A stretch of DNA of 64,000 nucleotides. Source: Alphaproteobacteria bacterium UBA6376. GTDB lineage: Bacteria > Pseudomonadota > Alphaproteobacteria > Rs-D84. The translations under genes and the position numbers were made by a program. Location: contig DJQW01000001.1 in NCBI GenBank assembly GCA_002437665.1, forward strand, positions 392,727 through 456,726. Reading direction: 5' to 3'. Positions 1-61,133 of this stretch are shown in pieces; the first letter of the stretch is position 1; each line of letters begins with the position of its first letter. The notes under the pieces are model-generated. The model searched no databases. It was not told the origin of the DNA and saw only the letters and a list, made by a program, of their open reading frames with translations.

Positions 1-1314
1 CAATACCAGATCTAATTTCAAATGTGCCATGGTATAACTGGACATCATGATTTCAAACCCGTGCATACGTGGCAACAAATCGTTTTCAACGTAATTCGGC
101 CAAATGCCAGCATTATTCTTGAACTTATCATAAATATAGTTCACTGCGGTTGCTAAAAATGTTCCTGTGCCGGTTGCAGGGTCAAGTAATTGAACACGAT
201 GGTACTCTTTGTCTTCTGCTTTTGCGTGTCCTTGTAAATGGACTTTTTTTATGATTTTTGACTTGTCCGCCAATCCATTTGGTAATTCAAAATCCGTTTT
301 CAATATGTCGTCCATCGCACGGACTATGTAATCAACAACCGGTTGTGGGGTATAATAAACACCACGCATTTTACGCAACGTCTTGTCATATTTGCTTAAA
401 AACGTTTCATAGAAATGAACTATAGGATCGGCTGTCTTGGTTTTACGTCCAAAATCTTTCAAAATATCTGCAACATCAGTATAACTAAAAATGCTTGCCA
501 AACTGTCAACAGACCACACAATACGCTCATCAATATCATTTCCAGCAATATAATCAAACATTTTACGCAAAAACGGCACCGTCTTAGGTATCAGGGTGGC
601 GGCTTCCTGGCGGGTGAAATCATGCATAGTTTTGTCGTGCAAACGTGCAACAAACATACCGTACGCAATCGTTTGTGCATAAATGTCTGCAAATTCTTGT
701 TCTGTCATTGTGCGAATAAGAATCTTTCGGAATGATTCCAGCTGTTCATATAATGATTGGTTTTCTGATTGATCCTTTAATGCGCCTTTTATCACGTCTG
801 CAATCAAACGTGCTTTACCGGCCATCAATTCGGCCAATTTCAATGGTGATTTTATAGTTGCGGTTTTGATGACATAAAAATCTTTTATCAAATCAACCAA
901 TGTTTGATACCGTTCTGGTAACGGTGTAATTGTTTTGCCATCAAATTCAGCTATGCGCACTCTGGCGGTTTCTTTGCCTTCTTGATAAAATCTGAATTCC
1001 AAATAATCTGTATATATCAAATTTGGCAATGCATCCAAATAACGACTTTTTTGTTCTATCTCCCTGTCTGACAAATTATCTAACCGATTAATTCCGATAT
1101 CTTTTGCCTCTATAAAACCCAACACCGCATCACTGCGTCGGACCATAAAATCAGGCGCGCCAAACGTTCCACGCGCCGGTTCATTTATTGCGACTATCCC
1201 CGTTTCAATAGATTCAAGCAATCGTTTCAGGGCGGGACGATAAGAATGTTCTTTTGCGACCCCTGTTTTGAATTCTTTATCTATATCAACCAAATATTCA
1301 CAAGCACCATACAT
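1..1314 (-). CDS. Type IIG restriction-modification enzyme, N-terminal part only (PD-(D/E)xK endonuclease + gamma-class N6-adenine methyltransferase); C-terminus lies beyond window start
   Basis: Minus-strand ORF starting at ATG 1312-1314 (AAGGA RBS 8 nt upstream) and running off the window. Translation shows GAPDFMV...GFIEAKD (PD-(D/E)xK nuclease), then YYTPQPVVDYIV and LLDPATGTGTFL (MTase motifs X/I). Not in the ORF track because there is no stop inside the window. Confidence 0.6.
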   Translation of the reverse strand, partial: MYGACEYLVDIDKEFKTGVAKEHSYRPALKRLLESIETGIVAINEPARGTFGAPDFMVRRSDAVLGFIEAKDIGINRLDNLSDREIEQKSRYLDALPNLIYTDYLEFRFYQEGKETARVRIAEFDGKTITPLPERYQTLVDLIKDFYVIKTATIKSPLKLAELMAGKARLIADVIKGALKDQSENQSLYEQLESFRKILIRTMTEQEFADIYAQTIAYGMFVARLHDKTMHDFTRQEAATLIPKTVPFLRKMFDYIAGNDIDERIVWSVDSLASIFSYTDVADILKDFGRKTKTADPIVHFYETFLSKYDKTLRKMRGVYYTPQPVVDYIVRAMDDILKTDFELPNGLADKSKIIKKVHLQGHAKAEDKEYHRVQLLDPATGTGTFLATAVNYIYDKFKNNAGIWPNYVENDLLPRMHGFEIMMSSYTMAHLKLDLVL

Positions 1315-1348
1315 GAGCCAATCCTTGATGGCCCAATCTGTTTTCTTT

Positions 1349-1371
1349 ATACAGGCAATCTAAGGACCATC
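1349..1371. repeat. Left 23-bp inverted repeat (atacaggcaatctaaggaccatc) of putative invertible promoter segment
   Basis: Perfect 23/23 reverse-complement match to 1453-1475; read directly from the sequence. Confidence 0.85.
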
Positions 1372-1400
1372 TTTTTGCCATAACCATCATTTACATGCTG

Positions 1401-1429
1401 ATTCTACCAGATTTTAACCCGTTTTGCAA
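1401..1429 (-). promoter_or_regulatory. Sigma70-like promoter TTGCAA-N17-TAGAAT inside the invertible segment, currently facing the Type IIG gene
   Basis: Minus-strand -35 TTGCAA (1424-1429), 17-nt spacer, -10 TAGAAT (1401-1406). An AAGGA RBS and the ATG of the methyltransferase gene follow about 90 nt downstream. Confidence 0.55.
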
Positions 1430-1452
1430 TAAAGGCATACTCTGGACATTCT

Positions 1453-1475
1453 GATGGTCCTTAGATTGCCTGTAT
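1453..1475. repeat. Right 23-bp inverted repeat; overlaps last 5 codons plus stop of the recombinase gene
   Basis: Reverse complement is identical to 1349-1371. Confidence 0.85.
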
Positions 1476-2054
1476 GTATCGTCCCAATGTTCTCGGACTA
1501 ACATTTAGTGCCATTGCCACGCGTCTTTTTGATATCCCCATTGCCAACATTTGTTTTGCTAATTTACTCTTGCCGTCCATTTTATGATGCTTGTTTTTGC
1601 TTCCCGTCTGTCGTCCAAGTTGCATGCCCGCCAGTTTTCTACGTTGCAATGCTTCTTTGGTCCTTTGCGCAATCATGTCACGTTCTATCTCTGCGGCCAT
1701 ACCGAATGCAAAGGCCAGTACCTTACTTTGAATTGATTCATTCAAGGTATACCCATCCTTTACACTGTAAACCTGCACTCCACGCTTTAATAGAAATTCT
1801 AATATGCGAAACAGCATGAACAGGCGTCGCCCGAAACGTGACAATTCAGAAATGATTACGATGTCCCCAGGGTGGATATTTTGCATCAAAATACCAAGCG
1901 CACGCTTTTCTGGTTCACGCGTGCCGGATATGCCAGAATCTTCTATATATTTATCTATCCGCAACCCAAGCGCCCCCGCCTTGGATTCAATACCCAGTTT
2001 TTGATTCGCACAATCTTGTTTATCCGTTGAAACCCGTATATAGCCATATATCAC
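1461..2054 (-). CDS. Serine recombinase (resolvase/invertase family, Hin/Gin/Tn3-resolvase-like)
   Basis: 197 aa; N-terminal YIRVSTDKQ catalytic-serine motif, resolvase core, C-terminal HTH (ISKRRVAMALNVSPRTLGRYI). Confidence 0.85.
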   Translation of the reverse strand: MIYGYIRVSTDKQDCANQKLGIESKAGALGLRIDKYIEDSGISGTREPEKRALGILMQNIHPGDIVIISELSRFGRRLFMLFRILEFLLKRGVQVYSVKDGYTLNESIQSKVLAFAFGMAAEIERDMIAQRTKEALQRRKLAGMQLGRQTGSKNKHHKMDGKSKLAKQMLAMGISKRRVAMALNVSPRTLGRYIQAI

Positions 2055-2220
2055 AATAAACTCCTTTGGTTCGTTGTTCTATATGTCGTAGATTTCAGTT
2101 TATTCAAGTAAATAAAGATGGTTTAAGAGTGTTCAGTAACAATACTTTTTTTATCCATCGGCACTTGAAAATAGTGGACTTTTTACCTAGTTAATATAAA
2201 ACATACAAGGATTTAGAAAC

Positions 2221-3684
2221 ATGAAAACAGTTTTAGATTTAAATGCAGAAAAGGCAAAAAATTTTTTTCTGGCAGGGGAAAATTATTTTACGGGGGATTT
2301 GCCTCCATATTTTAAGTTTAATGATGTTTTACAAAAGGCAACTGCGATTTTGCAAAACAATGAGTTTAAGCAAATATATCACAGAAAACCCAATGATGTT
2401 CCAGACATCAATTATGATATAATAATCAATAAAAATGGGGAATACGATTGGCGTAAATTGACGATAATAAACCCCATATTGTATGTAAACCTTGTAAATT
2501 GTATATGCAATGCCGATGCATGGGAAAAAATATGTAATAGGTTTAAAGAATTTAGATCAGACAATCGTATTGTGTGTTCAAGTATACCGGTTGTAAAAGG
2601 TATGCGTAGACATCAAAGAGCGCAACAGATTTCAAATTGGTTGACAGAATTTGAACAAGATTCTGTGAAACAATCGTTAATTTTCTCTCATATGGTATGT
2701 ACGGATATAGTAAATTGTTATTCATCTATATATACTCATTCTATAGCTTGGGCGCTACATGGAGAAGACGTAGCAAAAAACAATAAAACAGATATGTCTT
2801 TCTTAGGAAATATTATAGATGTCGGTATAAGAGACCTTTCATATAATCAAACTAATGGGATTCCACAAGGTTCGGTATTGATGGATTTTATTGCAGAAAT
2901 TATATTAGGCTATATAGATACCTTAATAGCAGAAAAATTAAAGCGAGAGAACATAAAAGATTACAAAATATTAAGATATAGAGATGATTATAGAATATTT
3001 ACAAATAATCCAAAAGACAGTGAAATAATATTAAAAACTATAAATGATGTTTGTCAGCATATAGGTCTAAGATTAAACACACAAAAAACATTCGCCACAG
3101 ATAAAGTTATTTCAAAAGCGATAAAAAAAGATCGGTTTGATATACCCATAAGTTTCGTGCAACCAAATTATAAAATATTTTTACAATTGTATAAAATGTC
3201 TGAAGAACAGCAGAATTCAGGAGCATTACAAAGTACGTTATCGGCATTAAATAAAAAAATAAAGATAACAAAAAAAGATAAATCAGAACTATTGATAAGT
3301 ATAATTACAGACATCGCATATAATGTCCCAAAAGTTATACCACAAGCATTTACAACTATTAGCCATATTTTAAGAAAAGAACCCAGAGAAATGCAGTTGG
3401 AATACATTACAAAAATCAAGAACAAGTTCTCTAGAAAAGCCTATACAAGTTTTGTTCATATATGGTTGCAAAGATTGAGTATAAATATTGATTATCAGAT
3501 TGAATACGAACCAGATATTTGCAAGTTTGTTAAAGATAAATCTATCGAATTGTGGAATTTTAGTTGGTTAAAAAAAGAATTTTTAGACCAATTAAAACCA
3601 TATGACATAGTAAATGCATATTTGCTTAGACGTGCAAAATTACCAATTGAAAGCAAAGAAACGAATATTTTTGAATACAATTAG
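2221..3684 (+). CDS. Stand-alone reverse transcriptase of the Abi/UG (defence-associated) class, with a C-terminal alpha-helical extension
   Basis: 487 aa. RT motifs: A (MVCTDIVNCYSSI), B' (NGIPQGSVLMDFIAEIIL), C (ILRYRDDYRIF, YxDD), D (IGLRLNTQKT). No endonuclease, maturase or integrase domain is evident. Confidence 0.7.
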   Translation: MKTVLDLNAEKAKNFFLAGENYFTGDLPPYFKFNDVLQKATAILQNNEFKQIYHRKPNDVPDINYDIIINKNGEYDWRKLTIINPILYVNLVNCICNADAWEKICNRFKEFRSDNRIVCSSIPVVKGMRRHQRAQQISNWLTEFEQDSVKQSLIFSHMVCTDIVNCYSSIYTHSIAWALHGEDVAKNNKTDMSFLGNIIDVGIRDLSYNQTNGIPQGSVLMDFIAEIILGYIDTLIAEKLKRENIKDYKILRYRDDYRIFTNNPKDSEIILKTINDVCQHIGLRLNTQKTFATDKVISKAIKKDRFDIPISFVQPNYKIFLQLYKMSEEQQNSGALQSTLSALNKKIKITKKDKSELLISIITDIAYNVPKVIPQAFTTISHILRKEPREMQLEYITKIKNKFSRKAYTSFVHIWLQRLSINIDYQIEYEPDICKFVKDKSIELWNFSWLKKEFLDQLKPYDIVNAYLLRRAKLPIESKETNIFEYN

Positions 3685-4138
3685 GTTTATTTTTACTCTA
3701 TTTAGGAATATTTTGTTTGGTCGCCCACGAACATTATCCCGAACCATTTGCATAAAAAGGCAAAGCGTGCCTGATATGTTGTTGCGCGAACTTGTTTTGC
3801 TTGTTTCAGCTGATAGACAGCATTTCTTTATAAATTGATTAACGACCGATGAAAATTTGGTAAGCCCAGAATGACTATGTTACTTCAATTAAGTGCTATC
3901 CGCACATCCTTCCATCAGGAACTACCCCTGTCTTAATGCCCTGAAACATTTACAGTTAACAAAAACGTCTAATGCAGAAATTGTCAAATGAGATTTACTC
4001 CCGTCAAAAATGTATCATTTTGTTGTTTCAGATACTCTTTATTAACCTTGTACTGCTCTGGAAATTGCTGAAACTCTCTTTTCATTCGCTCTACCCCTGC
4101 CGAGCAAAGATACGCCGGAGTATTGCGCCCCTTTTTGT

Positions 4139-4692
4139 TCAAAGGTGGAATAGACGGATTAAACAGAGCCTCTTGAACATTAACATTGAACAATTCTTAA
4201 CCACATCATTTGTTAGCTGGATAAAGTAAGGAATACGAACCACTTTGTAGCCAAGCTTCATATATAATTTAGTATTTTTTTCATCCCTTAAAATGATATC
4301 AGGGTTTGTGTAATGGTGTATCCCATCAAACTCAACAATTAACTTTAATGTCTCACTTCGATAATCGGGCCGCTTCATGTATTTGTTTCTGCCTACATTT
4401 CCCAATGATTTATCATGAATCCAATCTTGCACATCAGGAAATATGATAGCCAAATACTCTTCAAACCAGTTCTGTGCAACCCGGTGTCTGCATCAAAACC
4501 CGCAACCTGTTTTTCATTAAGTTTTAGATTAAAAGCATAAGACAAAACGCATTCCCCAATATCGCCAAGCATTCTGCCATCAACAGCAAAAGTTTTATGG
4601 ACTTTTTCATGCATGCCCACTGTAGTGGCATGAAGTTTCAGATACTCTCCTAATATAAAATTGGCTTGCTCTTCTGTTACCGTTAAGCTCAT
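4139..4692 (-). pseudogene. DUF559-type (PD-(D/E)xK-like) endonuclease-domain gene, apparently frameshifted
   Basis: ORF 4139-4453 carries LIVEFDGIHHY...KLGYKVVRIPY (DUF559 signature). Overlapping upstream ORF 4393-4692 is in another frame, with a stop just before the DUF559 frame resumes. A third fragment, 3984-4193, may also belong. Confidence 0.35.
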
Positions 4693-4904
4693 TTTATCAC
4701 ATCTTTTTCAAACTACTGTAACACGCCTCCCAGCATCATACAGAGAAAGAAACACCAGCACAAACAAAAACACCAAATTTGTTAAACACACTTTACAAAA
4801 GTGTTATTTTTGACAATTATGAAAAATAAAATAACATAATGGCCGAATTGACTTTCTACCCCGAAATTGCTACCATTATCCGATGATAATAATGGGGCAA
4901 AAAC

Positions 4905-7391
4905 ATGACGTTTGATAAATTACGTGATGACAACGAGGCATATGCTCGTTTAAAAATAAATCAGAAGTTGATTGACGCGGGCTGGTTTTTAACAGATGCC
5001 CATGAACATAAACGCAATGTGAATGTTGAGCAACGGGTTGATTCTGGCTTTGCTGACTATGAAATGTTAGATTCAAACGGCTTTCCTTTGTGTGTTATTG
5101 AAGCCAAAAAACCATCAATCAACCCATTAAGTGCAAAAGAACAAGCACGCAGATATGCAACAGAACACGGTATTCGCTTTGTTATTTTATCAAACGGTGA
5201 AATTTATTATCTGTGGGACATAAAAACGGGTAATCCACAAATCATAACCCAAATACCAACCCAAGAATCTTTGGAAATGCGCTTTGGTTTTGACCCAAGC
5301 ACCAAAGATATAATGAAAGAAAACATTATTCCGGAATATGTTGCATTACAAAAGAATCCGCGCTTGTTGGATGTGCCTGAATATCAAAACCCAAAGACTC
5401 GTGGCGCTTATTGTTGGAATAATGGTTTACGAATATTGCGTGATTATCAGCTTGGTGCCGTTCATGCAGTGCAGCAAGCTATTGCAGATGGTAAAGATAG
5501 ATTCTTGATTGAAATGGCGACTGGATTGGGCAAAACATTGACGGCTGGTGCAATAATTCAAATGTTATTACGCACCGGACACGCGCATAGGGTTTTATTC
5601 CTTGTTGACCGTATTGAATTGGAACAGCAAGCGTGGAAAAACTTTAATGATTATCTGTGTGATTTTGTAACCGTAATTTATAAAGAAAATACAAAAGATT
5701 GGCATAAAGCGGATATTGTTGTTTCAACCATCCAAACATTGATGGCCAGTGATAAATACAAACATTTTTCACCAACTGATTTTGATTTTATCATATCAGA
5801 CGAAGCGCACCGTTCAATAGGTGGTAACAGCCGCGCAGTATTTGAATATTTTATCGGTTACAAATTGGGATTAACTGCGACACCACGTGATTACATCAAA
5901 AATGTGGATATTGATAAAATCAAGGTTAATGACCCAAAAGCACTTGAACGCAGATTGTTATTGGATACATATAAAACATTTGGTTGTGAAAGCGGTGAAC
6001 CAACATACAAATATACAATGATTGACGGTATTAAAAATGGTTATCTGGTTGCCCCAATGGCTATTGATGCGCGCACAGATATAACCACAGAAATGTTATC
6101 CGAAAAAGGTTATCACGCGATTGGTGTTGACGATAATGGCGAGGATGCAGAAGCCGATGTTGTTGTGAAAGATTTTGAAAAACGCTTTTTCAATGACAAT
6201 ATAAACGCGGTATTTTGCAAAGCGTTCTTGGAAAACGCAGAACGCGACCCAATCAGTGGCGAAATTGGTAAAACATTGGTATTTTGCGTTAGTCAATCAC
6301 ACGCTGCAAAGATTACCCAGATGTTGAATGAATTGGCTATGCAGGCATTCCCAGGCAAATATAATAGTGATTTTGCAGTCCAGGTTACCAGCAATGTTCA
6401 AAATGCACAGCAAATGACAAATCAGTTTATGACGGATAATAATAATCTGGGCGGTAAATCAACATTTTTGGAAGGTTATGATACATCAAAAACGCGTGTA
6501 TGTGTAACCGTTGGAATGATGACGACTGGTTATGATTGCAGCGATTTATTAAACATCGTATTTATGCGTCCGGTATTTTCACCAACTGATTTTGTGCAAA
6601 TGAAGGGGCGCGGAACCCGTAAATATACATTCAAGTATGTTGACGCAGATAAGAATGAAACCAGAAAAGACAAAGAAAGATTCAAGATGTTTGACTTCTT
6701 TGGCAACTGCGAATATTTTGAAGAAAAGTTTGATTACGGTCAGCAATTAAAATTACCTGCATTAACAAAAGGCGCTTTGGCAGGGCCAGGACAACAACGC
6801 ACATTTACAACCTTAACATCCGAAGAGATAACGAAACTGATTCAAATGGAAACGCTTAATATCCCAGACAACGGAATGCGTATAGACCGCGAATTCTGGG
6901 GCAATTTCCAAAAGACAATCAGTGCTGATACAGATATTAAAAATGCGGTTGAAAACAGCGATTGGGATTATGCTGTATCATTGGTTAAAGACAGATACGA
7001 AAATAAACCTGAATTATATCCTAATCTGGAACGGATTAAAAAAGCGACAAAATTGGACCGCCGTTTGTCCTGGCGCGAAATATTGGAACATATATTCGGC
7101 TTGCTGCCCCGATTTAAGACACGCGATGAAATGTTAGAAGATGAATGCGATAAATACATATCTATTGTTAAACCTGACGCTGAAATTGTGCCGTCTGTTA
7201 AAAATTTCATAAAATTGTATGTCACAGACAACACATTTCGTGATATAATAGAAAAGCAGGAGTATCCGCGCCTTAATGCTGAAATTCCTGGCTTTAGTAT
7301 GCAGGATTTGAAAATGATGGGCAAAGACATCCGCGAAAATTTACCTGAATACATCAAAGAAAACATAGTATTGAATAAATATATGGGGTAA
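4905..7391 (+). CDS. hsdR: Type I restriction enzyme R subunit (HsdR)
   Basis: 828 aa. N-terminal nuclease motif (DSGFADY...IEAKKP), SF2 helicase motifs MATGLGKT, DEAH, LTATP, QMKGRGTR. Confidence 0.8.
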   Translation: MTFDKLRDDNEAYARLKINQKLIDAGWFLTDAHEHKRNVNVEQRVDSGFADYEMLDSNGFPLCVIEAKKPSINPLSAKEQARRYATEHGIRFVILSNGEIYYLWDIKTGNPQIITQIPTQESLEMRFGFDPSTKDIMKENIIPEYVALQKNPRLLDVPEYQNPKTRGAYCWNNGLRILRDYQLGAVHAVQQAIADGKDRFLIEMATGLGKTLTAGAIIQMLLRTGHAHRVLFLVDRIELEQQAWKNFNDYLCDFVTVIYKENTKDWHKADIVVSTIQTLMASDKYKHFSPTDFDFIISDEAHRSIGGNSRAVFEYFIGYKLGLTATPRDYIKNVDIDKIKVNDPKALERRLLLDTYKTFGCESGEPTYKYTMIDGIKNGYLVAPMAIDARTDITTEMLSEKGYHAIGVDDNGEDAEADVVVKDFEKRFFNDNINAVFCKAFLENAERDPISGEIGKTLVFCVSQSHAAKITQMLNELAMQAFPGKYNSDFAVQVTSNVQNAQQMTNQFMTDNNNLGGKSTFLEGYDTSKTRVCVTVGMMTTGYDCSDLLNIVFMRPVFSPTDFVQMKGRGTRKYTFKYVDADKNETRKDKERFKMFDFFGNCEYFEEKFDYGQQLKLPALTKGALAGPGQQRTFTTLTSEEITKLIQMETLNIPDNGMRIDREFWGNFQKTISADTDIKNAVENSDWDYAVSLVKDRYENKPELYPNLERIKKATKLDRRLSWREILEHIFGLLPRFKTRDEMLEDECDKYISIVKPDAEIVPSVKNFIKLYVTDNTFRDIIEKQEYPRLNAEIPGFSMQDLKMMGKDIRENLPEYIKENIVLNKYMG

Positions 7392-7395
7392 CGGT

Positions 7396-9288
7396 ATGTT
7401 AGACGCCAGAACAAAACAAACCATTGATAATGCCTGCGATACATTGGTGGGTAAAGTGCCAAGTCCACAGACACAGGTTGATATTATTACAACCGCGCTA
7501 ATTTATAAGTTTATGGACGATATGGATTTGGACGGCCTTGAATTGTCGGGCAAGCGTACATTTTTTGCCGGCGATTTAGAAGCATACGCGTTTTCAACCG
7601 TTGTTAATACCAAGGGTAATCAAGAACGGATGAACCTGTATTTGACAGGGCTTGAAAAGGTGCAGACCGCCAAATCGGTGCCTGAATTATTTCGCCGTAT
7701 TTTCAAAGAAGCACTTATTCCATTTCGCGATCCTACAACATTTGCATTGTTTCTAAAAGAAATCAACGAATTATCATACGATGATTCCGAGACAATAGGT
7801 GATGCTTTTGAATACCTTTTGAATAAAATGGCGACTGCAAAAAATGCGGGGCAGTTCAGAACGCCACGTAATATTATTGATTTCATCGTTGATGTTGTGA
7901 ATCCTACTAAAAATGATACTATTTTAGATCCTGCCTGCGGAACGGCCGGATTCTTGATTTCTGCATACAAGCACATTACACAAAATCGTAAATTGACACC
8001 AGATGAATTAAAACAGATTACGAATAATGTTGTTGGAATGGATATTGATCCAACTATGGTGAAATTAAGTCTGGCCAATCTGTATTTGCATAAATTTGAA
8101 CAACCAAATATTTATGAATATGATACTTTGTCGAATGATACACGTTGGGGTGACCGATATGATGTTATTTTAGCAAACCCACCATTCATGACCCCAAAGG
8201 GCGGAATTACACCGCATAAGCGATTTGCCATAAACGCCAACCGCAGTGAAGTTTTGTTCGTCGATTATTTTATGGAGCATTTGACAATAAACGGGCGTGC
8301 TGGCTTTGTTGTCCCAGAGGGTATTATATTCCAAACCGCAAACGCATATAAAGATTTGCGTAAAATGATGTTGGATGGTTATTTATACGCGGTTGTATCT
8401 TTACCATCTGGCGTATTCAATCCGTATGCTGGGGTAAAAACATCAATACTATTCTTTGACCGCGCGTTTGCAAAACAAAACAACAATATATTATTTGTGC
8501 GTGTTGATAATGACGGCTTTTCTTTGGGCGCACAACGCACACCGATCAAACAGAACGATTTACCAGAAACGTTAAAGATTATCAATGAATACCGCGATGG
8601 TAAAGATGTATCAGGTTATGAACGCGCAATGGTTGTGTCCAAAGAACGCATAGCAGAACAAAATTATGACCTAACCGCTGCAAAGTATGTTGAGAAAGAA
8701 ATTGTTCAATGTAATTATGGAATGGTTAGATTGGGTGATGTTTGTGAATTGTTAAATGGATATGCATTCAAAAGCGAATTGTATACGGATACTGGTATTC
8801 GTGTGATGCGTATAACAAATGTGCAGAAAGGCGAAATTGTTGATGATAACCCAAAATTTTATCCGATAGAAAAACAATCCGAAATACAAAATTACATGTT
8901 ACATGAAAATGACTTGCTTGTATCTTTAACGGGTAATGTTGGGCGTGTTGGTTTGTTGCCAAAGAATTTATTACCTGCAGGATTAAATCAACGGGTTGCA
9001 TGTTTAAGACCGGATACAGATAAAATTTTGAAGGGATATTTGTTTGCTATATTAAATCAGGATAAATTTGAAAAAGATTGTATTGAATCGTCTGGCGGAA
9101 TTGCGCAAAAGAATTTAAGCACAGTATGGTTACAAAATTACACAATCCCACTTCCGTCATTGGATGTGCAACAACAGATTGTGGATGAAATTGAAAATAA
9201 GCAATCAGCAATCAACCACGCACGCAAAATCATTGAAAATCTAGAGAGAGAGAGAGAGAATATTTTGCCTGCCTTCTTGACAGTATAG
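7396..9288 (+). CDS. hsdM: Type I methyltransferase HsdM fused in frame to an HsdS half (target-recognition domain 1 + conserved coiled-coil)
   Basis: 630 aa. N6-MTase motifs (DPACGTAGFL, NPPF). Typical HsdM C-terminus (SKERIAEQNYDLTAAKYV) runs directly into an HsdS-like TRD (VRLGDVCELLNGYAFKS...). Ends just after an (AG)8 tract. Confidence 0.8.
   Translation: MLDARTKQTIDNACDTLVGKVPSPQTQVDIITTALIYKFMDDMDLDGLELSGKRTFFAGDLEAYAFSTVVNTKGNQERMNLYLTGLEKVQTAKSVPELFRRIFKEALIPFRDPTTFALFLKEINELSYDDSETIGDAFEYLLNKMATAKNAGQFRTPRNIIDFIVDVVNPTKNDTILDPACGTAGFLISAYKHITQNRKLTPDELKQITNNVVGMDIDPTMVKLSLANLYLHKFEQPNIYEYDTLSNDTRWGDRYDVILANPPFMTPKGGITPHKRFAINANRSEVLFVDYFMEHLTINGRAGFVVPEGIIFQTANAYKDLRKMMLDGYLYAVVSLPSGVFNPYAGVKTSILFFDRAFAKQNNNILFVRVDNDGFSLGAQRTPIKQNDLPETLKIINEYRDGKDVSGYERAMVVSKERIAEQNYDLTAAKYVEKEIVQCNYGMVRLGDVCELLNGYAFKSELYTDTGIRVMRITNVQKGEIVDDNPKFYPIEKQSEIQNYMLHENDLLVSLTGNVGRVGLLPKNLLPAGLNQRVACLRPDTDKILKGYLFAILNQDKFEKDCIESSGGIAQKNLSTVWLQNYTIPLPSLDVQQQIVDEIENKQSAINHARKIIENLERERENILPAFLTV
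9243..9259. repeat. (AG)8 dinucleotide simple-sequence repeat at the hsdM-S/hsdS' junction
   Basis: agagagagagagagaga read directly. It lies about 30 nt before the stop of the HsdM-S ORF (ends 9288). The downstream half-S frame is open through the tract. Confidence 0.8.
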
Positions 9289-9305
9289 ATTACAACGAAG
9301 TAAAA

Positions 9306-9800
9306 TTGGGCGATGTTGTAAAGGTTGATTGGGGAAATACCAATTTAACAAAAGCCGCATATGAAGAAAATGGCAAATATCTTGGTGTCAGTGCTGCAGG
9401 TTGTGACGGGCGTATGTCAAATTTTGAACACGATGTGGGAGTTAGTGTTTTATCTGCGATAGGTGCAAACTGTGGAAGGGTTTTTTATCCGGATGAAAAA
9501 TTTACGGCGATTAAAAATACTATAACTTTCACACCGAATAGAACAGTTGTTGTGCCAAAATATTTATTTTTTGTTATGCGGAACAATCAATTACCACAGC
9601 GTGGCGGAGCACAACCATTTATGGCGAAAGCGGATGTTGAATCATATATTATACCACTTCCATCCATTGACGACCAGAAGCGTATAGTTGCAAAATTGGA
9701 AGCAGAACAGGAAATCATTGATACAAATAAACGCTTGATTGATTTGATGCAAGAAAAAATCAACCAAGTTATAAAACGTATATATAGGTGCAATATGTAA
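9306..9800 (+). CDS. hsdS: HsdS half-subunit (target-recognition domain 2 + second conserved coiled-coil)
   Basis: 164 aa, TTG start. TRD followed by LPSIDDQKRIVAKLEAEQEIID...; its frame is open upstream through the (AG)8 tract. Confidence 0.65.
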   Translation: MGDVVKVDWGNTNLTKAAYEENGKYLGVSAAGCDGRMSNFEHDVGVSVLSAIGANCGRVFYPDEKFTAIKNTITFTPNRTVVVPKYLFFVMRNNQLPQRGGAQPFMAKADVESYIIPLPSIDDQKRIVAKLEAEQEIIDTNKRLIDLMQEKINQVIKRIYRCNM

Positions 9801-9802
9801 TT

Positions 9803-10492
9803 ATGACTGAATATTCTGATGATAATCCAGTTTATGTATTAGCGGATTTTTTGCCGCCACTTGATGAAACTGTTGCTTATCTATATAAATACAAAGATGA
9901 TTTTGCATATCATTATGAACGAGAATTTTATAATCTTGCGTTATTCTCGTATCACCAATTGTATATGGCAATATTGCATATGTATTTGTTAAAGTTCCAC
10001 AGGATGGATATAAAAATCGCTAGTGCCTGCAGGCAGAATCGTCCAATTATAAGTGTTTTATCTCCTTCTTTTTATTCTGATGTTATGGATGAAAAAGCTC
10101 GCATTGGGTTGTTTGGTCGTAGAATTTCAACCGAAATTAAAAAGAAACATGTAGAATTAGTTCAACAAAGGGATAGAATTGCGCATTTTACTGGGAATGT
10201 GTTAACCAAAGAACAAATTGACGAACATATATCAATATCGGCGGTTGTGTTAAAAGAAATTCAATCTGTTGCTTTTTATGAATTACTTTTGCATCCAACA
10301 GACCGTTTCGGGGTTCAAGTAAACGATATAGTGACAGAAATAGACAAGTCGGAAAGGTTTTCAAAAATTTCATATCTGATTCAGGACTTCTATTTATCTA
10401 AAAATGATATAGATTTTTTACAGAGATATCCTGATTTTTGTTTTTGGAATGAATATATACAGGAAAATGGTTATGAGCCAATTGAAAATTAA
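9803..10492 (+). CDS. Hypothetical protein with HEPN-like Rx4H motif (Abi-like candidate)
   Basis: About 229 aa, directly after hsdS'; RDRIAHF motif; no other recognisable domain. Confidence 0.35.
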   Translation: MTEYSDDNPVYVLADFLPPLDETVAYLYKYKDDFAYHYEREFYNLALFSYHQLYMAILHMYLLKFHRMDIKIASACRQNRPIISVLSPSFYSDVMDEKARIGLFGRRISTEIKKKHVELVQQRDRIAHFTGNVLTKEQIDEHISISAVVLKEIQSVAFYELLLHPTDRFGVQVNDIVTEIDKSERFSKISYLIQDFYLSKNDIDFLQRYPDFCFWNEYIQENGYEPIEN

Positions 10493-10613
10493 TGCCTGTA
10501 TTTATATTAAGGAACACAAGATTTAAATTTTTCTATCAAAATTTAGGAATAAAATACAAGATAATACCACATATTTCAACCACGGGTTGAAACAAGCGGC
10601 GAATTTCCGATAT

Positions 10614-11402
10614 CTACGCAACCGCATTCTCAAATCGGTCTACGATTTCAAGTAATGTGTCTGGTACATATTTTCGGGCGGTCGCCTGTATGTCGGCTGG
10701 CACGCCATAGTACGCACCGGCAACTGCGCCCGTAATGGCGGCAATCGTGTCACTGTCGCCACCGATTGAAATTGCATTGCGTATTGCGTCTTCAAAATCG
10801 GTGGATTCTATAAAGCACTGCAACGCCTGCGGGACTGTGCCTTGGCACGAGGCATCCCAACGATAACTTTTTTGCAATTCAGAAACCGGTAAGCACGCCC
10901 CATAGTAGTTTTTGATTATGTGCCGACCTATCTCGGCTTTGTCACGGCCGGTGCGTGCCAGAAATACGGCAACGGCGGTTGCCTCGGCCCCTTTGATGGC
11001 CTCGATGTGGTCATGACTGACCGATGTTACCATGTACGACAGGCGTTTAACCTCTGATAAACTGCGGCCAACCCAGCCAGCCGCCGACACGCGCATTGCG
11101 GCACCGTTGCCCCAACTGTCGTACGGTTCGCTGTCATAGCTATCCAGCCAACGTGCAAATCTGAATCCATAGCTCTTGTCCGGGAACTGTCGGCCAATCG
11201 TGCGCATAGACCGGCGCGCCAAATCCGACAGATCGCCACCATCACGCCGCCATTTCAACAGCGCATCCGCCACCGCGATGGTCATACAAGTGTCATCTGT
11301 GATAAATCCACACGGTGAAAATAATGGAAAATCCTTGGTTCTGATATTATCAAATTCATAAATAGATCCGACAATATCACCAACTATCGCACCCCACAGC
11401 AT
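10614..11402 (-). CDS. ADP-ribosylglycohydrolase family protein (DraG/ARH-like)
   Basis: 262 aa; GAIVGDIVGS, GNGAAMRVSAAG, GGDSDTIAAITGAVAGAYYG motifs. Confidence 0.8.
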   Translation of the reverse strand: MLWGAIVGDIVGSIYEFDNIRTKDFPLFSPCGFITDDTCMTIAVADALLKWRRDGGDLSDLARRSMRTIGRQFPDKSYGFRFARWLDSYDSEPYDSWGNGAAMRVSAAGWVGRSLSEVKRLSYMVTSVSHDHIEAIKGAEATAVAVFLARTGRDKAEIGRHIIKNYYGACLPVSELQKSYRWDASCQGTVPQALQCFIESTDFEDAIRNAISIGGDSDTIAAITGAVAGAYYGVPADIQATARKYVPDTLLEIVDRFENAVA

Positions 11403-11414
11403 ATTGCGCCCCCT

Positions 11415-11936
11415 TTATAACGTGCTTAAAAAATTCTCTAACTCTTTAATCTTTTGTTTTTTCCAACCGCGATTGCTTTTTTGAAACTGGGTGTAAGTGC
11501 GCAACTCTGTGACCTTGCGCAACCATGGGGCGGGGTAATAGCCGAACACCGGTACATTTCGCGCCATGCATTGACGCAATATGGCGATGTTTTCATCACG
11601 TGCGTCACGCGCGCCCTTGGGCCACGTCGCCTCTGGCGGAATACCGCGCGATGATGCCGTGTGATACGGATAGTATTCCAGAAACAGAACCTCTGAATTT
11701 TTTACACCATGTTCACGGAACGCAGCGCAAAAATCGTCCCACCAATCGTTGTATTCCTGCAAACTGTCCAAAGGCATACCGGTTGGGGCATAGCAGCCGT
11801 CTGAGCGCATTGCGTACTCTGGCAATCGTTTTGGCCACTGCGGATTGCCACCCGGATTCCATAACAATATGACAAGACGTGGATTTCTGTCGTTACCCAA
11901 ACGCACCACCGGCAAATCGTATAAATCTCTACTCAT
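11415..11936 (-). CDS. Hypothetical protein, co-oriented 12 bp upstream partner of the ADP-ribosylglycohydrolase
   Basis: 173 aa ORF (W/Y/P-rich, YYPYHTASSRG); no domain recognised. Confidence 0.4.
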   Translation of the reverse strand: MSRDLYDLPVVRLGNDRNPRLVILLWNPGGNPQWPKRLPEYAMRSDGCYAPTGMPLDSLQEYNDWWDDFCAAFREHGVKNSEVLFLEYYPYHTASSRGIPPEATWPKGARDARDENIAILRQCMARNVPVFGYYPAPWLRKVTELRTYTQFQKSNRGWKKQKIKELENFLSTL

Positions 11937-12054
11937 ATTGTATTCCCTCCACAGTCAGACCCAAAAAAATGATGTGAAATATTTATATAAAAATTCTGCA
12001 AGAACCAGACGACAAAATCAATAAAAAACACCCCGCACGGGGTATTTTTATTAC

Positions 12055-60773: not shown

Positions 60774-61133
60774 ATGGCATTCACATTCTTGAAACCAGCG
60801 GCAAAGAAAGTTGCTGCGAAACCAGCAGCAAAAAAAGTTGCTGTTAAAAAACCAGCGGCGAAAAAGCCAGCTGCAAAACCAGCAGCGAAAAAAGTTGTTG
60901 CTAAAAAACCTGTTGCCAAGAAAGTAGCAGCGAAACCAGCAGCAAAGAAAGTTGCAGTTAAAAAAGTTGCTGCAAAACCAGCGGCAAAAAAAGTAGTTGC
61001 TAAAAAACCAGCAGCGAAAAAACCAGTTGCAAAGAAAGTCGCAGTAAAAAAGCCGGTTGCTAAAAAAGCCCCAGCGAAAAAAGTTGCTGTGAAAAAGCCA
61101 GTTGCCAAGAAAGCACCTGCAAAGAAAAAATAA
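60774..61133 (+). CDS. Lysine/alanine-rich histone H1-like repeat protein (AKKPAAKK)n
   Basis: 119 aa composed almost entirely of (V/P)AAKKPAAKK repeats; the DNA is a tandem repeat. A good RBS (AAAGGAGAGAAGA) precedes the ATG. Confidence 0.6.

What the first reader, a model, noticed from the sequence alone, without database searches (positions are those of the whole stretch)
9243..9259. (AG)8 slippage-prone tract exactly between the HsdM-HsdS(TRD1) fusion and the second half of HsdS
The hsdM ORF continues in frame into an HsdS target-recognition domain and its conserved coiled-coil. It stops about 30 nt after an (AG)8 tract. The second HsdS half (TRD2 plus second coiled-coil) begins 18 nt later in another frame, and that frame is open back through the repeat. 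Loss of one AG unit would fuse M-TRD1 to TRD2 into one long polypeptide. The present state gives a half-S, which predicts a symmetric (palindromic) target. Slipped-strand mispairing here would therefore switch the specificity class of the Type I system. This parallels poly-G switching of hsdS reported in Neisseria.
Basis: partly seen in the sequence, partly recalled or inferred. Interest (0 to 1): 0.7.

Follow-up and report, generated by a model that had tools for sequence, protein, structure and literature searches.

The report
AG-repeat switch in fused restriction methylase
A run of eight AG units sits inside a fused methylase-plus-specificity gene of a Type I restriction system, and near-identical strains in public data differ by exactly one AG unit, so the gene flips between a full two-domain protein and a truncated one-domain protein; this is a known kind of bacterial switch, seen here in an unusual fused gene.

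Summary
(AG)8A lies at 9243-9259, and none is expected by chance. It is inside a fused hsdM-hsdS gene, at the last turn of the central coiled-coil helix.

- **Present allele:** out of frame. It gives a 630-aa M-TRD1-CC1 protein, and TRD2-CC2 is left as a 164-codon remainder.
- **Natural variation:** the same locus (99.9-100% identical over 9-14 kb) occurs with (AG)6A, which gives an in-frame 800-aa fusion, and with (AG)7A, which gives 630 aa. The window allele is the (AG)7A allele plus one C>G change that lengthens the run.
- **Hot spot:** across 3.4 kb shared by 11 contigs, the AG unit and that SNP are the only variable sites.
- **Wider family:** close relatives carry 4.5 to 9.5 units, and frame follows length. 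The tract marks one coiled-coil subtype of M-S fusions in several phyla. About 17-50% of alleles are out of frame at this site.

The slippage switch is well supported. It is only inferred that the truncated protein dimerises and recognises a palindromic target. That inference rests on engineered M-half-S fusions, a natural Vibrio M-half-S fusion (PDB 7EEW) and NgoAV. A plain ON/OFF switch is the main rival.

SSRs between hsdS TRDs are already known, so this is a new variant of moderate interest.

The parts
4905..7391 (+). hsdR: 828-aa restriction subunit with an N-terminal HSDR_N nuclease region, a ResIII/DEAD motor and Helicase_C. Intact in this allele.
   Evidence: Pfam hits. Partial match to EcoAI/FtnUII-family R, 228 bits against a cutoff of 550. 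PADLOC REase_I, 1.5e-60.
7396..8715 (+). hsdM part of the fused gene (residues 1-440): gamma-class N6-adenine methyltransferase with the NPPF motif (ILANPPF).
   Evidence: PF02384 at 1.7e-58, residues 131-435. PDB sequence hits to Type I HsdM chains 5ybb, 2okc and 2y7c. Foldseek matches.
8716..9159 (+). TRD1, the first target-recognition domain, fused in frame to hsdM.
   Evidence: PF01420 Methylase_S, residues 441-617, 2e-19. The AlphaFold model shows a beta-rich domain at 442-586.
9160..9258 (+). CC1, the central conserved coiled-coil helix (residues 589-621 of the fused protein), of the 'type B' kind: KQ.AINHA..II.NLERER.
   Evidence: Helix H589-621 in the AlphaFold2 model of the 99%-identical 800-aa homologue P0001, mean pLDDT 81. 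Type A/B comparison.
9243..9259 (+). (AG)8A slippage-prone tract encoding ERERE at the last turn of CC1. The present length puts the downstream sequence out of frame.
   Evidence: Natural length alleles of 4.5-9.5 units.
9260..9288 (+). Out-of-frame tail NILPAFLTV plus the TAG stop of the truncated 630-aa product.
   Evidence: The same tail ends 13 independent truncated relatives as D[NS]ILPA[FY]L...
9234..9800 (+). Frame holding the rest of the gene: the end of CC1, TRD2 and CC2. It is called as a 164-aa ORF from TTG 9306. Most likely it is not translated on its own in this allele.
   Evidence: PF01420 at 6.3e-15. The frame is open through the repeat. It is 99% identical to TRD2-CC2 of the in-frame alleles P0001/P0123. 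The TTG is not conserved as a start. The only SD-like element is GAAG, 5 nt upstream.
9788..10492 (+). Conserved ~230-aa ORF immediately downstream. Function unknown; possibly a fourth component of the system.
   Evidence: tblastn finds it directly after the M-S gene in L001 (77%), L140 (67%), and L011, L007, L061 and L066 (27-31%). No Pfam, NCBIfam or PADLOC hit.

Best explanation
The locus is a natural 'Type IMS' Type I restriction-modification system: a separate HsdR plus a single polypeptide that fuses HsdM to a two-TRD HsdS. The AG tract is a contingency (hypermutable) repeat built into the end of the central coiled-coil.

Slipped-strand mispairing during replication adds or removes AG units (inferred mechanism; the resulting length alleles are shown). 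Tract lengths in register give the 800-aa M-TRD1-CC1-TRD2-CC2 protein: 6.5 or 9.5 units in the usual CAATATTTT context, and 7.5 or 10.5 units in the window allele. This form is expected to read a bipartite asymmetric site. All other lengths, including the window's, terminate 8-10 codons after the tract. They give a 626-630 aa M-TRD1-CC1 protein that keeps the whole TRD1 and the whole CC1 helix (shown).

By analogy with engineered and natural M-half-S fusions, two truncated chains would pair through CC1. That forms an M2(half-S)2 methyltransferase that reads a symmetric (palindromic) site made of two TRD1 half-sites, and still recruits HsdR (inferred, not tested).

The population therefore carries two restriction and methylation specificities, and a single AG slip moves a lineage between them. 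The 164-aa downstream ORF is the stranded remainder of the gene, like hsdS2 of NgoAV.

Confidence is split. The repeat-length switch between fused and truncated products is about 0.9. The claim that the truncated form is an active palindrome-reading enzyme is about 0.55. The figure given is for the whole statement.
For: **Anatomy**
- Domain and frame layout as described.
- The tract encodes E617-R620, the last turn of CC1 helix 589-621. CC2 is 757-796.

**Length polymorphism at one locus**
- P0123, 800 aa with (AG)6A, is on 7 contigs.
- P0122, 630 aa with (AG)7A, is on 21 contigs, including GCA_002452175.1 and JGI 3300013383.
- The window allele is on 4 contigs.
- All share the same flanking genes and are 99.9-100% identical.
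- In 3.4 kb shared by 11 contigs, the only variable columns are the AG unit and the adjacent C/G.
- Within one 13.8-kb haplotype, both ON (L089) and OFF (L085, L086) occur.

**Close clade**
- Natural alleles have 4.5, 5.5, 6.5, 7.5 and 9.5 units, and reading frame follows length exactly.
- About 59 alleles are in frame and 15 are out of frame among the listed proteins.

**Family-wide**
- In protein-selected species-representative genomes, all 8 loci with the type-B CC1 carry an AG run of at least 9 nt at these codons. Four of the 8 are frameshifted there.
- None of about 65 type-A loci is frameshifted at CC1.
- Removing one unit restores 796-831 aa ORFs in L001, L051 and L062.
- In JGI metagenomes, 19 alleles are in frame and 4 out of frame (three +1 unit, one -1 unit).

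**Codon usage**
- GAG is 4 of 31 Glu codons and AGA is 4 of 27 Arg codons in the window gene, yet ERER is always GAG-AGA. The same holds in 8 other lineages.

**Is the truncated form plausibly active?**
- hsdR is intact next to out-of-frame alleles in the window, L001, L017, L051, L062 and L126.
- Natural single-TRD M-half-S fusions exist in the same family: L018 (633 aa) and L061 (658 aa).
- The best structural match of the model is 7eew_A. PMC12429846 describes it as a natural HsdM-HsdS1/2 fusion whose dimer recapitulates M2S1.
- Engineered MSfus and M-half-S fusions of S. aureus CC398-1 are both active methylases and, with HsdR, nucleases. The half-S fusion methylates palindromic ACCN5GGT at 99.66% of sites (PMC6158711).
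- An M-half-S variant shortened by 27 bp (9 codons) in the central region behaved like the longer M-half-S construct in the in vivo eop assay, where M-half-S modified but did not restrict.
- NgoAV switches between GCA(N8)TGC and GCAN7GTCA through a poly-G tract (PMC9577141).
- SSRs in hsdS 'invariably' lie between the TRDs, and include AG[n] tracts (PMC7383803).
Against: - No methylation or expression data exist for this organism, so activity of the 630-aa product is inferred only.
- The out-of-frame tail contains a proline and replaces the short 623-626 helical turn. That could weaken dimerisation.
- Three out-of-frame lineages also have a broken hsdR: L135-137 (278+550 aa), L138 (244+591 aa) and L114. 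L017 cannot be restored to full length by slippage alone. Some OFF alleles are therefore on the way to decay.
- In-frame revertants of the window's own SNP-bearing allele were not found by exact look-up.
- Metagenome assemblies give one consensus per sample, so within-population switching and reversibility are not shown directly.
- The full-length fusion supplies only one M per S. How the second M is provided in the ON state is unresolved. EcoKI MSFusion needed extra HsdM in vitro (PMC3510504).
- The shared AG codons in different phyla may reflect common descent or transfer of the CC1 module rather than independent selection.
Confidence: 0.55

Rival explanations
1. Plain ON/OFF phase variation. 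The truncated M-TRD1-CC1 protein is inactive or unstable, so out-of-frame lengths silence both methylation and restriction. Slippage turns the whole defence system off and on, as with SSRs in hsdM or Type III mod genes.
For: - The length polymorphism supports this as well as the main explanation.
- Some OFF lineages also carry a broken hsdR or cannot be restored, consistent with a functionless state drifting to decay.
- The tail after the tract is out-of-frame sequence containing a proline.
- OFF alleles dominate in this species-level locus: 25 of 32 contigs with this genomic context.
Against: - The truncation falls exactly at the end of the CC1 helix and preserves all of TRD1 and CC1. This is the position used to engineer active half-S enzymes (PMC6158711).
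- Natural single-TRD M-half-S fusions exist in the family, and one is solved.
- A tract placed early in hsdM would be the simpler way to get ON/OFF. Known hsdS SSRs sit between the TRDs, and in NgoAV both states are active.
- hsdR is intact in most OFF loci.
Confidence: 0.28
2. The repeat is an incidental mutational hot spot with no adaptive role. ERER is simply the conserved protein sequence of this coiled-coil type, and the AG run is inherited with the module. The frameshifted alleles are ordinary loss-of-function mutations that happen to cluster there.
For: - The CC1 module is conserved at nucleotide level across phyla, so shared codons may be shared descent.
- Several OFF loci show further decay.
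- Modal tracts of 6.5 units are short for a classical contingency locus (own knowledge).
Against: - GAG and AGA are minority codons in every one of these genes, yet they are never replaced by synonymous codons, while flanking codons do vary.
- In-frame length variants of 9.5 units, and LEKERERER forms, also occur.
- ON and OFF alleles coexist within one otherwise identical 13.8-kb haplotype, which indicates very recent and probably recurrent change.
- TRD2 stays intact behind most OFF alleles.
Confidence: 0.1
3. Split-S arrangement. In the present allele the 164-aa TRD2-CC2 protein is translated on its own, from TTG 9306 or by reinitiation after the TAG 18 nt upstream. It assembles non-covalently with M-TRD1-CC1, so specificity is unchanged.
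For: - The ORF is intact and is called as a gene on 13 contigs.
- The stop and the TTG are only 18 nt apart.
- HsdS tolerates circular permutation and splitting (own knowledge; PMC3510504 discussion).
Against: - The start is TTG with only a weak GAAG upstream.
- The Leu codon is TTA, not a start codon, in L026.
- The promoter-like site at 9277-9306 would start transcription downstream of the TTG.
- In NgoAV the corresponding hsdS2 encodes no active protein.
Confidence: 0.05
4. Sequencing or assembly artefact. The frameshift reflects a miscounted dinucleotide repeat, and the real gene is always in frame.
For: Repeats can be miscalled, and the data are metagenome assemblies.
Against: - The same out-of-frame lengths recur in many independent assemblies from different studies and assemblers: 21, 4 and 3 contigs.
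- In-frame alleles recur in others.
- Short dinucleotide runs are not a typical Illumina error source (own knowledge).
Confidence: 0.02

Closest known systems
NgoAV Type I system of Neisseria gonorrhoeae (poly-G tract in hsdS1)
   Same: A simple repeat at the end of the first half of hsdS shifts the frame. The short product is TRD1 plus the central region, and the stranded second half (hsdS2) is inactive. Both states are active, with different specificities: GCA(N8)TGC and GCAN7GTCA (PMC9577141).
   Different: NgoAV has a separate hsdM and a mononucleotide tract. Here the tract is a dinucleotide and hsdS is fused to hsdM, so the short product is an M-half-S chain. Activity of either state is untested here.
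SSR-containing hsdS genes surveyed in REBASE, including the AG[n] group of Mycoplasmataceae (Atack et al. 2019, PMC7383803)
   Same: A non-triplet SSR of at least 5 units lies between the two TRDs and is predicted to toggle full-length and truncated HsdS. AG[n] tracts of about 8 units are described.
   Different: Those are stand-alone hsdS genes, and the paper does not mention M-S fusions (0 hits for 'fusion' or 'fused'). Whether the Mycoplasma tracts lie in a homologous coiled-coil module was not tested.
Engineered MSfus and M-half-S fusion of S. aureus CC398-1 (Bower et al. 2018, PMC6158711) and EcoKI MSFusion, 'Type IMS' (Roberts et al. 2012, PMC3510504)
   Same: These are the same two architectures as the in-frame and out-of-frame alleles here. 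Both are active with a separate HsdR. The half-S fusion dimerises and reads a palindrome.
   Different: Those proteins were made by mutagenesis in unrelated Type I families. Here both forms occur naturally from one gene and are interconverted by a repeat. The ON form's source of a second M is unknown.
Vibrio vulnificus YJ016 HsdM-HsdS1/2 fusion (PDB 7EEW)
   Same: A natural M fused to a single TRD plus coiled-coil, 638 aa against 630 aa here. Two chains form an M2S1-like methyltransferase. It is the best Foldseek match of the model.
   Different: It is a fixed single-TRD gene with no downstream TRD2 and no reported repeat. Sequence similarity is confined to the M domain, and the overall superposition is poor (rmsd about 20 A).
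Truncated or symmetrised HsdS of Type IC enzymes (EcoDXXI truncation, EcoR124I-NT)
   Same: A half-S carrying TRD1 and the central conserved region dimerises and yields a symmetric target (cited; PMC2877798, PMC3320862).
   Different: Laboratory constructs or transposon mutants. They are not repeat-driven and not fused to M.

Membership tests
Type I restriction-modification system, M-S fused ('Type IMS') arrangement | Separate HsdR with an N-terminal PD-(D/E)XK-type nuclease region and an SF2 helicase motor | tested here: met
   HSDR_N_2/HSDR_N, ResIII, DEAD and Helicase_C on the 828-aa ORF. REase_I at 1.5e-60. The match to the EcoAI-family model is below its cutoff, 228 against 550 bits, so no Type I subfamily (IA-IE) is assigned.
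Type I restriction-modification system, M-S fused ('Type IMS') arrangement | Gamma-class N6-adenine methyltransferase of HsdM type | tested here: met
   PF02384 at 1.7e-58. MTase_I at 3.7e-101. PDB HsdM chains by sequence and by fold. NPPF motif present.
Type I restriction-modification system, M-S fused ('Type IMS') arrangement | HsdS portion with two TRDs separated by two conserved helices, fused in frame to HsdM | tested here: met
   Met in the in-frame alleles P0001 and P0123, which have two Methylase_S domains, CC1 at 589-621 and CC2 at 757-796. In the window allele the second half is out of frame.
Type I restriction-modification system, M-S fused ('Type IMS') arrangement | ATP-dependent restriction and bipartite m6A methylation | not testable with these tools
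   No biochemical or methylome data.
SSR-mediated phase-variable hsdS (Atack et al. criteria) | Repeat unit not a multiple of three, at least 5 units for a dinucleotide, inside the ORF | tested here: met
   (AG)8A inside ORF 7396-9288.
SSR-mediated phase-variable hsdS (Atack et al. criteria) | Tract located between the two TRDs | tested here: met
   The tract encodes E617-R620 at the end of CC1, between TRD1 (442-586) and TRD2 (from 632).
SSR-mediated phase-variable hsdS (Atack et al. criteria) | Tract length differs among otherwise conserved copies of the gene | tested here: met
   6.5, 7.5 and 8.5 units at the same locus. 4.5 to 9.5 units in the close clade.
SSR-mediated phase-variable hsdS (Atack et al. 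criteria) | High-frequency, reversible switching within a clonal population | not testable with these tools
   Only consensus assemblies are available. ON and OFF within one haplotype is suggestive only.
NgoAV-like specificity switch (truncated HsdS active as a dimer) | Truncated product retains TRD1 and the central conserved helix | tested here: met
   The 630-aa product ends 9 residues after the tract. Helix 589-621 is retained.
NgoAV-like specificity switch (truncated HsdS active as a dimer) | Truncated product dimerises and methylates a symmetric site different from that of the full-length form | not testable with these tools
   Supported by precedent only.

The most novel reading that the evidence does not exclude
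The AG tract is a selected, portable contingency module. It forms part of one coiled-coil subtype of natural M-S fusion ('Type IMS') systems that has spread across distant phyla, including Patescibacteria/CPR, Poribacteria, Endomicrobia and gut Alphaproteobacteria. It lets a single gene alternate between a self-sufficient M-half-S homodimer with a palindromic target and a full M-S fusion with a bipartite target.

A more speculative extension: truncated chains also serve as the 'second M' donor that a full-length M-S fusion needs. In that case mixed ON/OFF products would be functionally coupled.
Probability: 0.4. Interest if true: 0.6.

Novelty: new variant of a known kind. Interest (0 to 1): 0.45.

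Why it matters
Repeat-driven switching of Type I specificity is established in a few pathogens and predicted for many REBASE hsdS genes. Three things are added here:

1. Direct population evidence from public assemblies. One AG unit is the only difference in about 14 kb between strains.
2. The switch occurs in a fused hsdM-hsdS gene. Its two states correspond to the MSfus and M-half-S-fusion enzymes that were previously only engineered.
3. The same tract recurs at the same codons in uncultured lineages from several phyla, with 17-50% of alleles out of frame.

If both states are active, this would be a compact natural system for studying several questions: how Type I enzymes assemble with one or two TRDs per chain, how cells survive a change of self-marking, and whether phasevarion-like epigenetic switching operates in gut commensals and CPR bacteria.

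For genome annotation there is a practical lesson. 'N6 methylase' plus 'restriction subunit S' gene pairs of about 630 and 165-190 aa in this family are one phase-variable gene.

Tried and rejected
- **Exact look-up of simulated window variants.** Variants with 6, 7, 9 and 10 units were not in the collection. The polymorphism was instead found through the 90% cluster members P0122 and P0123.
- **Naming the organism.** Cluster names of housekeeping and R proteins carried no names. The nearest named relatives of the M-S protein are MAGs labelled Alphaproteobacteria, so the host remains 'uncultured, probably alphaproteobacterial gut bacterium'.
- **Genome-representative scan.** It gave only one close relative (L001, 78%), so strain-level comparison relied on the look-up of encoding contigs.
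- **Internal promoter for TRD2.** The best sigma-70-like match in the region lies at 9277-9306. However, such sites are no more frequent than in shuffles, and its -10 element ends at the TTG. It was rejected as a driver of the 164-aa ORF.
- **Programmed frameshifting or transcriptional slippage on the tract** to make both products from one allele. No evidence was found. The majority type-A family members lack any tract yet are full-length fusions. This is kept only as a low-probability extension.
- **Recombinational hsdS shuffling with spare TRD cassettes as the switch.** No extra Methylase_S ORFs were found near the locus.
- **Literature.** Searches for natural 'Type IMS' or HsdM-HsdS fusions with repeats found nothing beyond the engineered cases and 7EEW.
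Full report
**Observation**

The sequence at 9243-9259 is AGAGAGAGAGAGAGAGA, (AG)8 plus A. Tandem Repeats Finder lists it as the only dinucleotide array in the window. A 16-nt (AG)8, even with one mismatch, never appeared in 100 dinucleotide-preserving shuffles.

**Anatomy**

Three co-oriented ORFs form the unit.
- 4905-7391 encodes an 828-aa HsdR-like protein with HSDR_N, ResIII/DEAD and Helicase_C. It matches PADLOC Type I REase at 1.5e-60. It matches the EcoAI-family model only partially.
- Four bases later, 7396-9288 encodes 630 aa comprising an HsdM-type N6-adenine methylase (PF02384, 1.7e-58) continuing in frame into one Methylase_S domain.
- 9306-9800 (TTG start, 164 aa) is a second Methylase_S domain in a different frame. 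That frame stays open back through the repeat to 9234.

Changing only the number of AG units in silico gives 798-804 aa M-TRD1-CC1-TRD2-CC2 proteins for n = 4, 7, 10 and 13. It gives 626-632 aa truncated proteins otherwise.

An AlphaFold2 model of the 99%-identical in-frame homologue P0001 (mean pLDDT 81) places the central coiled-coil helix at residues 589-621 and the C-terminal one at 757-796. The tract encodes E617-R620, the last turn of the central helix. The truncated product therefore keeps all of TRD1 and the CC1 helix, followed by the out-of-frame tail NILPAFLTV.

**What relatives show**

A search with the in-frame reconstruction found thousands of homologues. Almost all are 780-850 aa single-chain M-S fusions. 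The top hit, P0001, is 800 aa at 99% identity. The fused gene is therefore the normal state, and the window carries a frameshifted allele.

In the close clade, in-frame proteins read ...NLERER(Q/F)YFA..., sometimes LERERERQYF or LEKERERERFYF. Fifteen shorter proteins end ...LERERD(N/S)ILPA(F/Y)L.., LERETIFCLPS or LERDNILPAFLTV. These are the two alternative frames entered inside the same tract.

**Same locus, different tract lengths**

The 90% cluster of the window protein has four members: two of 630 aa and two of 800 aa. Their DNA was fetched and compared. With the same neighbours (resolvase, reverse transcriptase, DUF6998, hsdR, a ~230-aa ORF, ADP-ribosylglycohydrolase, lgt and so on) and 99.9-100% identity over 9-14 kb, the locus exists in three forms:
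- (AG)6A followed by CAATATTTT: in frame, 800 aa, 7 contigs.
- (AG)7A followed by CAATATTTT: 630 aa, 21 contigs, including GCA_002452175.1 and a JGI metagenome.
- The window form, (AG)8A followed by ATATTTT: 4 contigs.

The window form has the same total length as the (AG)7A allele. It differs by a C>G change immediately after the run, which extends the repeat by one unit.

In a 3.4-kb alignment of 11 contigs, the only variable columns are the AG unit and that C/G. Over 13.8 kb, one haplotype that differs from the window at 11 distal SNPs contains both the in-frame (L089) and out-of-frame (L085, L086) lengths. This is the pattern expected of a hypermutable site.

More distant members of the close clade add 4.5, 5.5 and 9.5 units. 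Frame follows length throughout.

**Family-wide pattern**

Among 80 species-representative genomes recovered by protein similarity, the fusion family has two kinds of central region.
- **Type A**, the majority, is short (...GYQKIIDGARQVVENYKP...) and has no AG run.
- **Type B** is longer (...KQNAINHAKEIIKNLERER(R/Q)YF...).

All eight type-B loci carry an AG run of 9-15 nt at the same codons. They come from an alphaproteobacterial MAG, Endomicrobia, Poribacteria, a sponge symbiont, and three Patescibacteria/CPR lineages. Four of the eight are frameshifted there. No type-A locus is truncated at this point.

Removing one unit restores 796-831 aa ORFs in three of the four. The fourth (L017) has an interrupted tract and further damage.

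A DNA-pattern scan of JGI metagenomes found 23 family members. Nineteen are in frame, mostly with (AG)6A. Four are out of frame: three with +1 unit and one with -1 unit. That scan required at least four GA units, so it is biased towards longer tracts.

In each gene, GAG and AGA are minority codons (4 of 31 Glu and 4 of 27 Arg codons in the window gene). Yet the ERER motif is always GAG-AGA. This points to maintenance of the repeat at DNA level, though inheritance of a transferred module cannot be excluded.

**Mechanism**

- **Shown:** the tract's position, the frame consequences, and natural length alleles in otherwise identical DNA.
- **Inferred:** the changes arise by slipped-strand mispairing and are reversible. 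This follows from the +1/-1 unit pattern, the in-frame 9.5-unit variants, and ON and OFF within one haplotype.
- **Inferred from precedent:** the 630-aa product is active as a homodimer with a palindromic target.

The precedent is close:
- Bower et al. fused HsdM to HsdS and to half-HsdS in S. aureus CC398-1. Both were active methylases and, with HsdR, nucleases. The full fusion kept ACCN5RTGA. The half-S fusion methylated palindromic ACCN5GGT at 99.66% of sites. An M-half-S variant shortened by 27 bp (9 codons) gave in vivo eop results like the longer M-half-S construct, which modified but did not restrict (PMC6158711).
- Roberts et al. named the M-S fusion arrangement 'Type IMS' (PMC3510504).
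- The best structural match of the model is PDB 7EEW. It is described as a natural Vibrio vulnificus HsdM-HsdS1/2 fusion whose dimer recapitulates M2S1.
- Two natural single-TRD fusions occur in this very family (L018 and L061).
- NgoAV shows the same logic driven by a poly-G tract, with an inactive stranded hsdS2 (PMC9577141).

The 164-aa ORF is probably not expressed separately. It has a TTG start, only a weak GAAG upstream, and the Leu codon is not a start codon in L026 (TTA).

**Rivals**

- **Plain ON/OFF.** The main alternative is that the truncated protein is inactive, so the tract simply silences the system. In its favour, three out-of-frame lineages also have a broken hsdR (L135-137, L138, L114) and L017 is decaying. 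Against it, hsdR is intact beside most out-of-frame alleles, including the window. The truncation point is also exactly where an active half-S ends.
- **Incidental hot spot, split-S with separate TRD2 translation, and assembly artefact** are less likely, for the reasons listed under rival explanations.

An open point for the ON state is where the second M comes from. One fusion chain carries one M per two-TRD S. EcoKI MSFusion needed added HsdM in vitro, and CC398-1 MSfus co-purified with a clipped M fragment.

**Comparison and novelty**

SSRs in Type I hsdS genes are known. They 'invariably' lie between the TRDs, and an AG[n] group exists in Mycoplasmataceae (PMC7383803). The principle is therefore not new.

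What differs:
- The gene is a natural hsdM-hsdS fusion, so the two states are an M-S chain and an M-half-S chain.
- The tract is a conserved feature of one coiled-coil subtype spread over several phyla.
- Public assemblies give strain-level evidence of switching.

In the held literature I found no description of a repeat in a natural M-S fusion. That library is incomplete and REBASE could not be queried. I rate it a new variant of a known kind, of moderate interest.

**Context**

The system lies in a low-GC stretch (0.36-0.40 for 1-12 kb against 0.45-0.50 elsewhere). This stretch also carries an invertase with a small inverton and a reverse transcriptase, consistent with a mobile defence island.

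Noticed in passing
window 1349-2054: Perfect 23-nt inverted repeats (1349-1371 and 1453-1475) flank an 81-nt segment. They abut the 3' end of a 197-aa resolvase/invertase-family ORF (1461-2054, minus strand). In public assemblies of the same locus (L086, L089, L090) the segment is in the opposite orientation to the window. This is therefore a small inverton found in both states in nature, about 6 kb upstream of the AG tract. Orientation varies within one haplotype (L085 versus L086)..
   Followed up: partly
window 2221-3684 (+): A 487-aa reverse transcriptase ORF (RVT_1) lies between the invertase and the restriction system. Its type (group II intron, retron or other defence RT) was not determined..
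   Followed up: no
window 9788-10492 (+): A ~230-aa ORF overlaps the end of the TRD2 frame. It is conserved directly downstream of the M-S gene in close relatives (L001 77%, L140 67%) and distant ones (L011, L007, L061, L066 at 27-31%). It has no Pfam, NCBIfam or PADLOC match. It is a candidate fourth component of this Type I family..
   Followed up: partly
window 9258: Apart from the AG unit itself, the only polymorphism in 3.4 kb among 11 same-locus contigs is a C/G immediately 3' of the tract. The G variant (the window allele) lengthens the repeat from 7.5 to 8.5 units. This shows a tract growing by substitution rather than slippage..
   Followed up: yes
window 9306-9800; P0016, P0024, P0033: The window's TRD2 is 63-70% identical to the TRD that sits in the TRD1 position of relatives P0016, P0024 and P0033. 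Proteins with identical M-TRD1 parts carry different TRD2s (for example P0002, P0003 and P0007). TRDs are therefore shuffled between alleles and between the two positions..
   Followed up: partly
L135-L137 (456-2944), L138 (506-2996), L114: In some relatives with an out-of-frame tract, hsdR is also split (278+550 aa, 244+591 aa, 494+334 aa) at different, non-repeat positions. This suggests that some silenced systems go on to decay, or lose restriction while keeping methylation..
   Followed up: partly
window 9277-9306 (+): The best sigma-70-like match in 4300-10800 (TTGACA, 18 nt, TAAAAT; 11 of 12) lies just after the tract. Promoter-like sites are no more frequent than in shuffles, and the -10 element ends at the TTG of the 164-aa ORF..
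   Followed up: partly
window 1-12000 versus the rest: GC content is 0.36-0.40 across the invertase, RT and restriction-modification stretch, against 0.45-0.50 in the remaining 52 kb. The close relative L081 has the same R and M-S genes but different flanking genes. Both suggest a horizontally acquired, mobile defence island..
   Followed up: partly
window 60792-61127: A long imperfect tandem array (periods 15, 27, 42, 57, 114) encodes Lys/Ala/Pro-rich repeats (KPAAKKVAA...), resembling histone H1-like or DNA-binding tail repeats..
   Followed up: no
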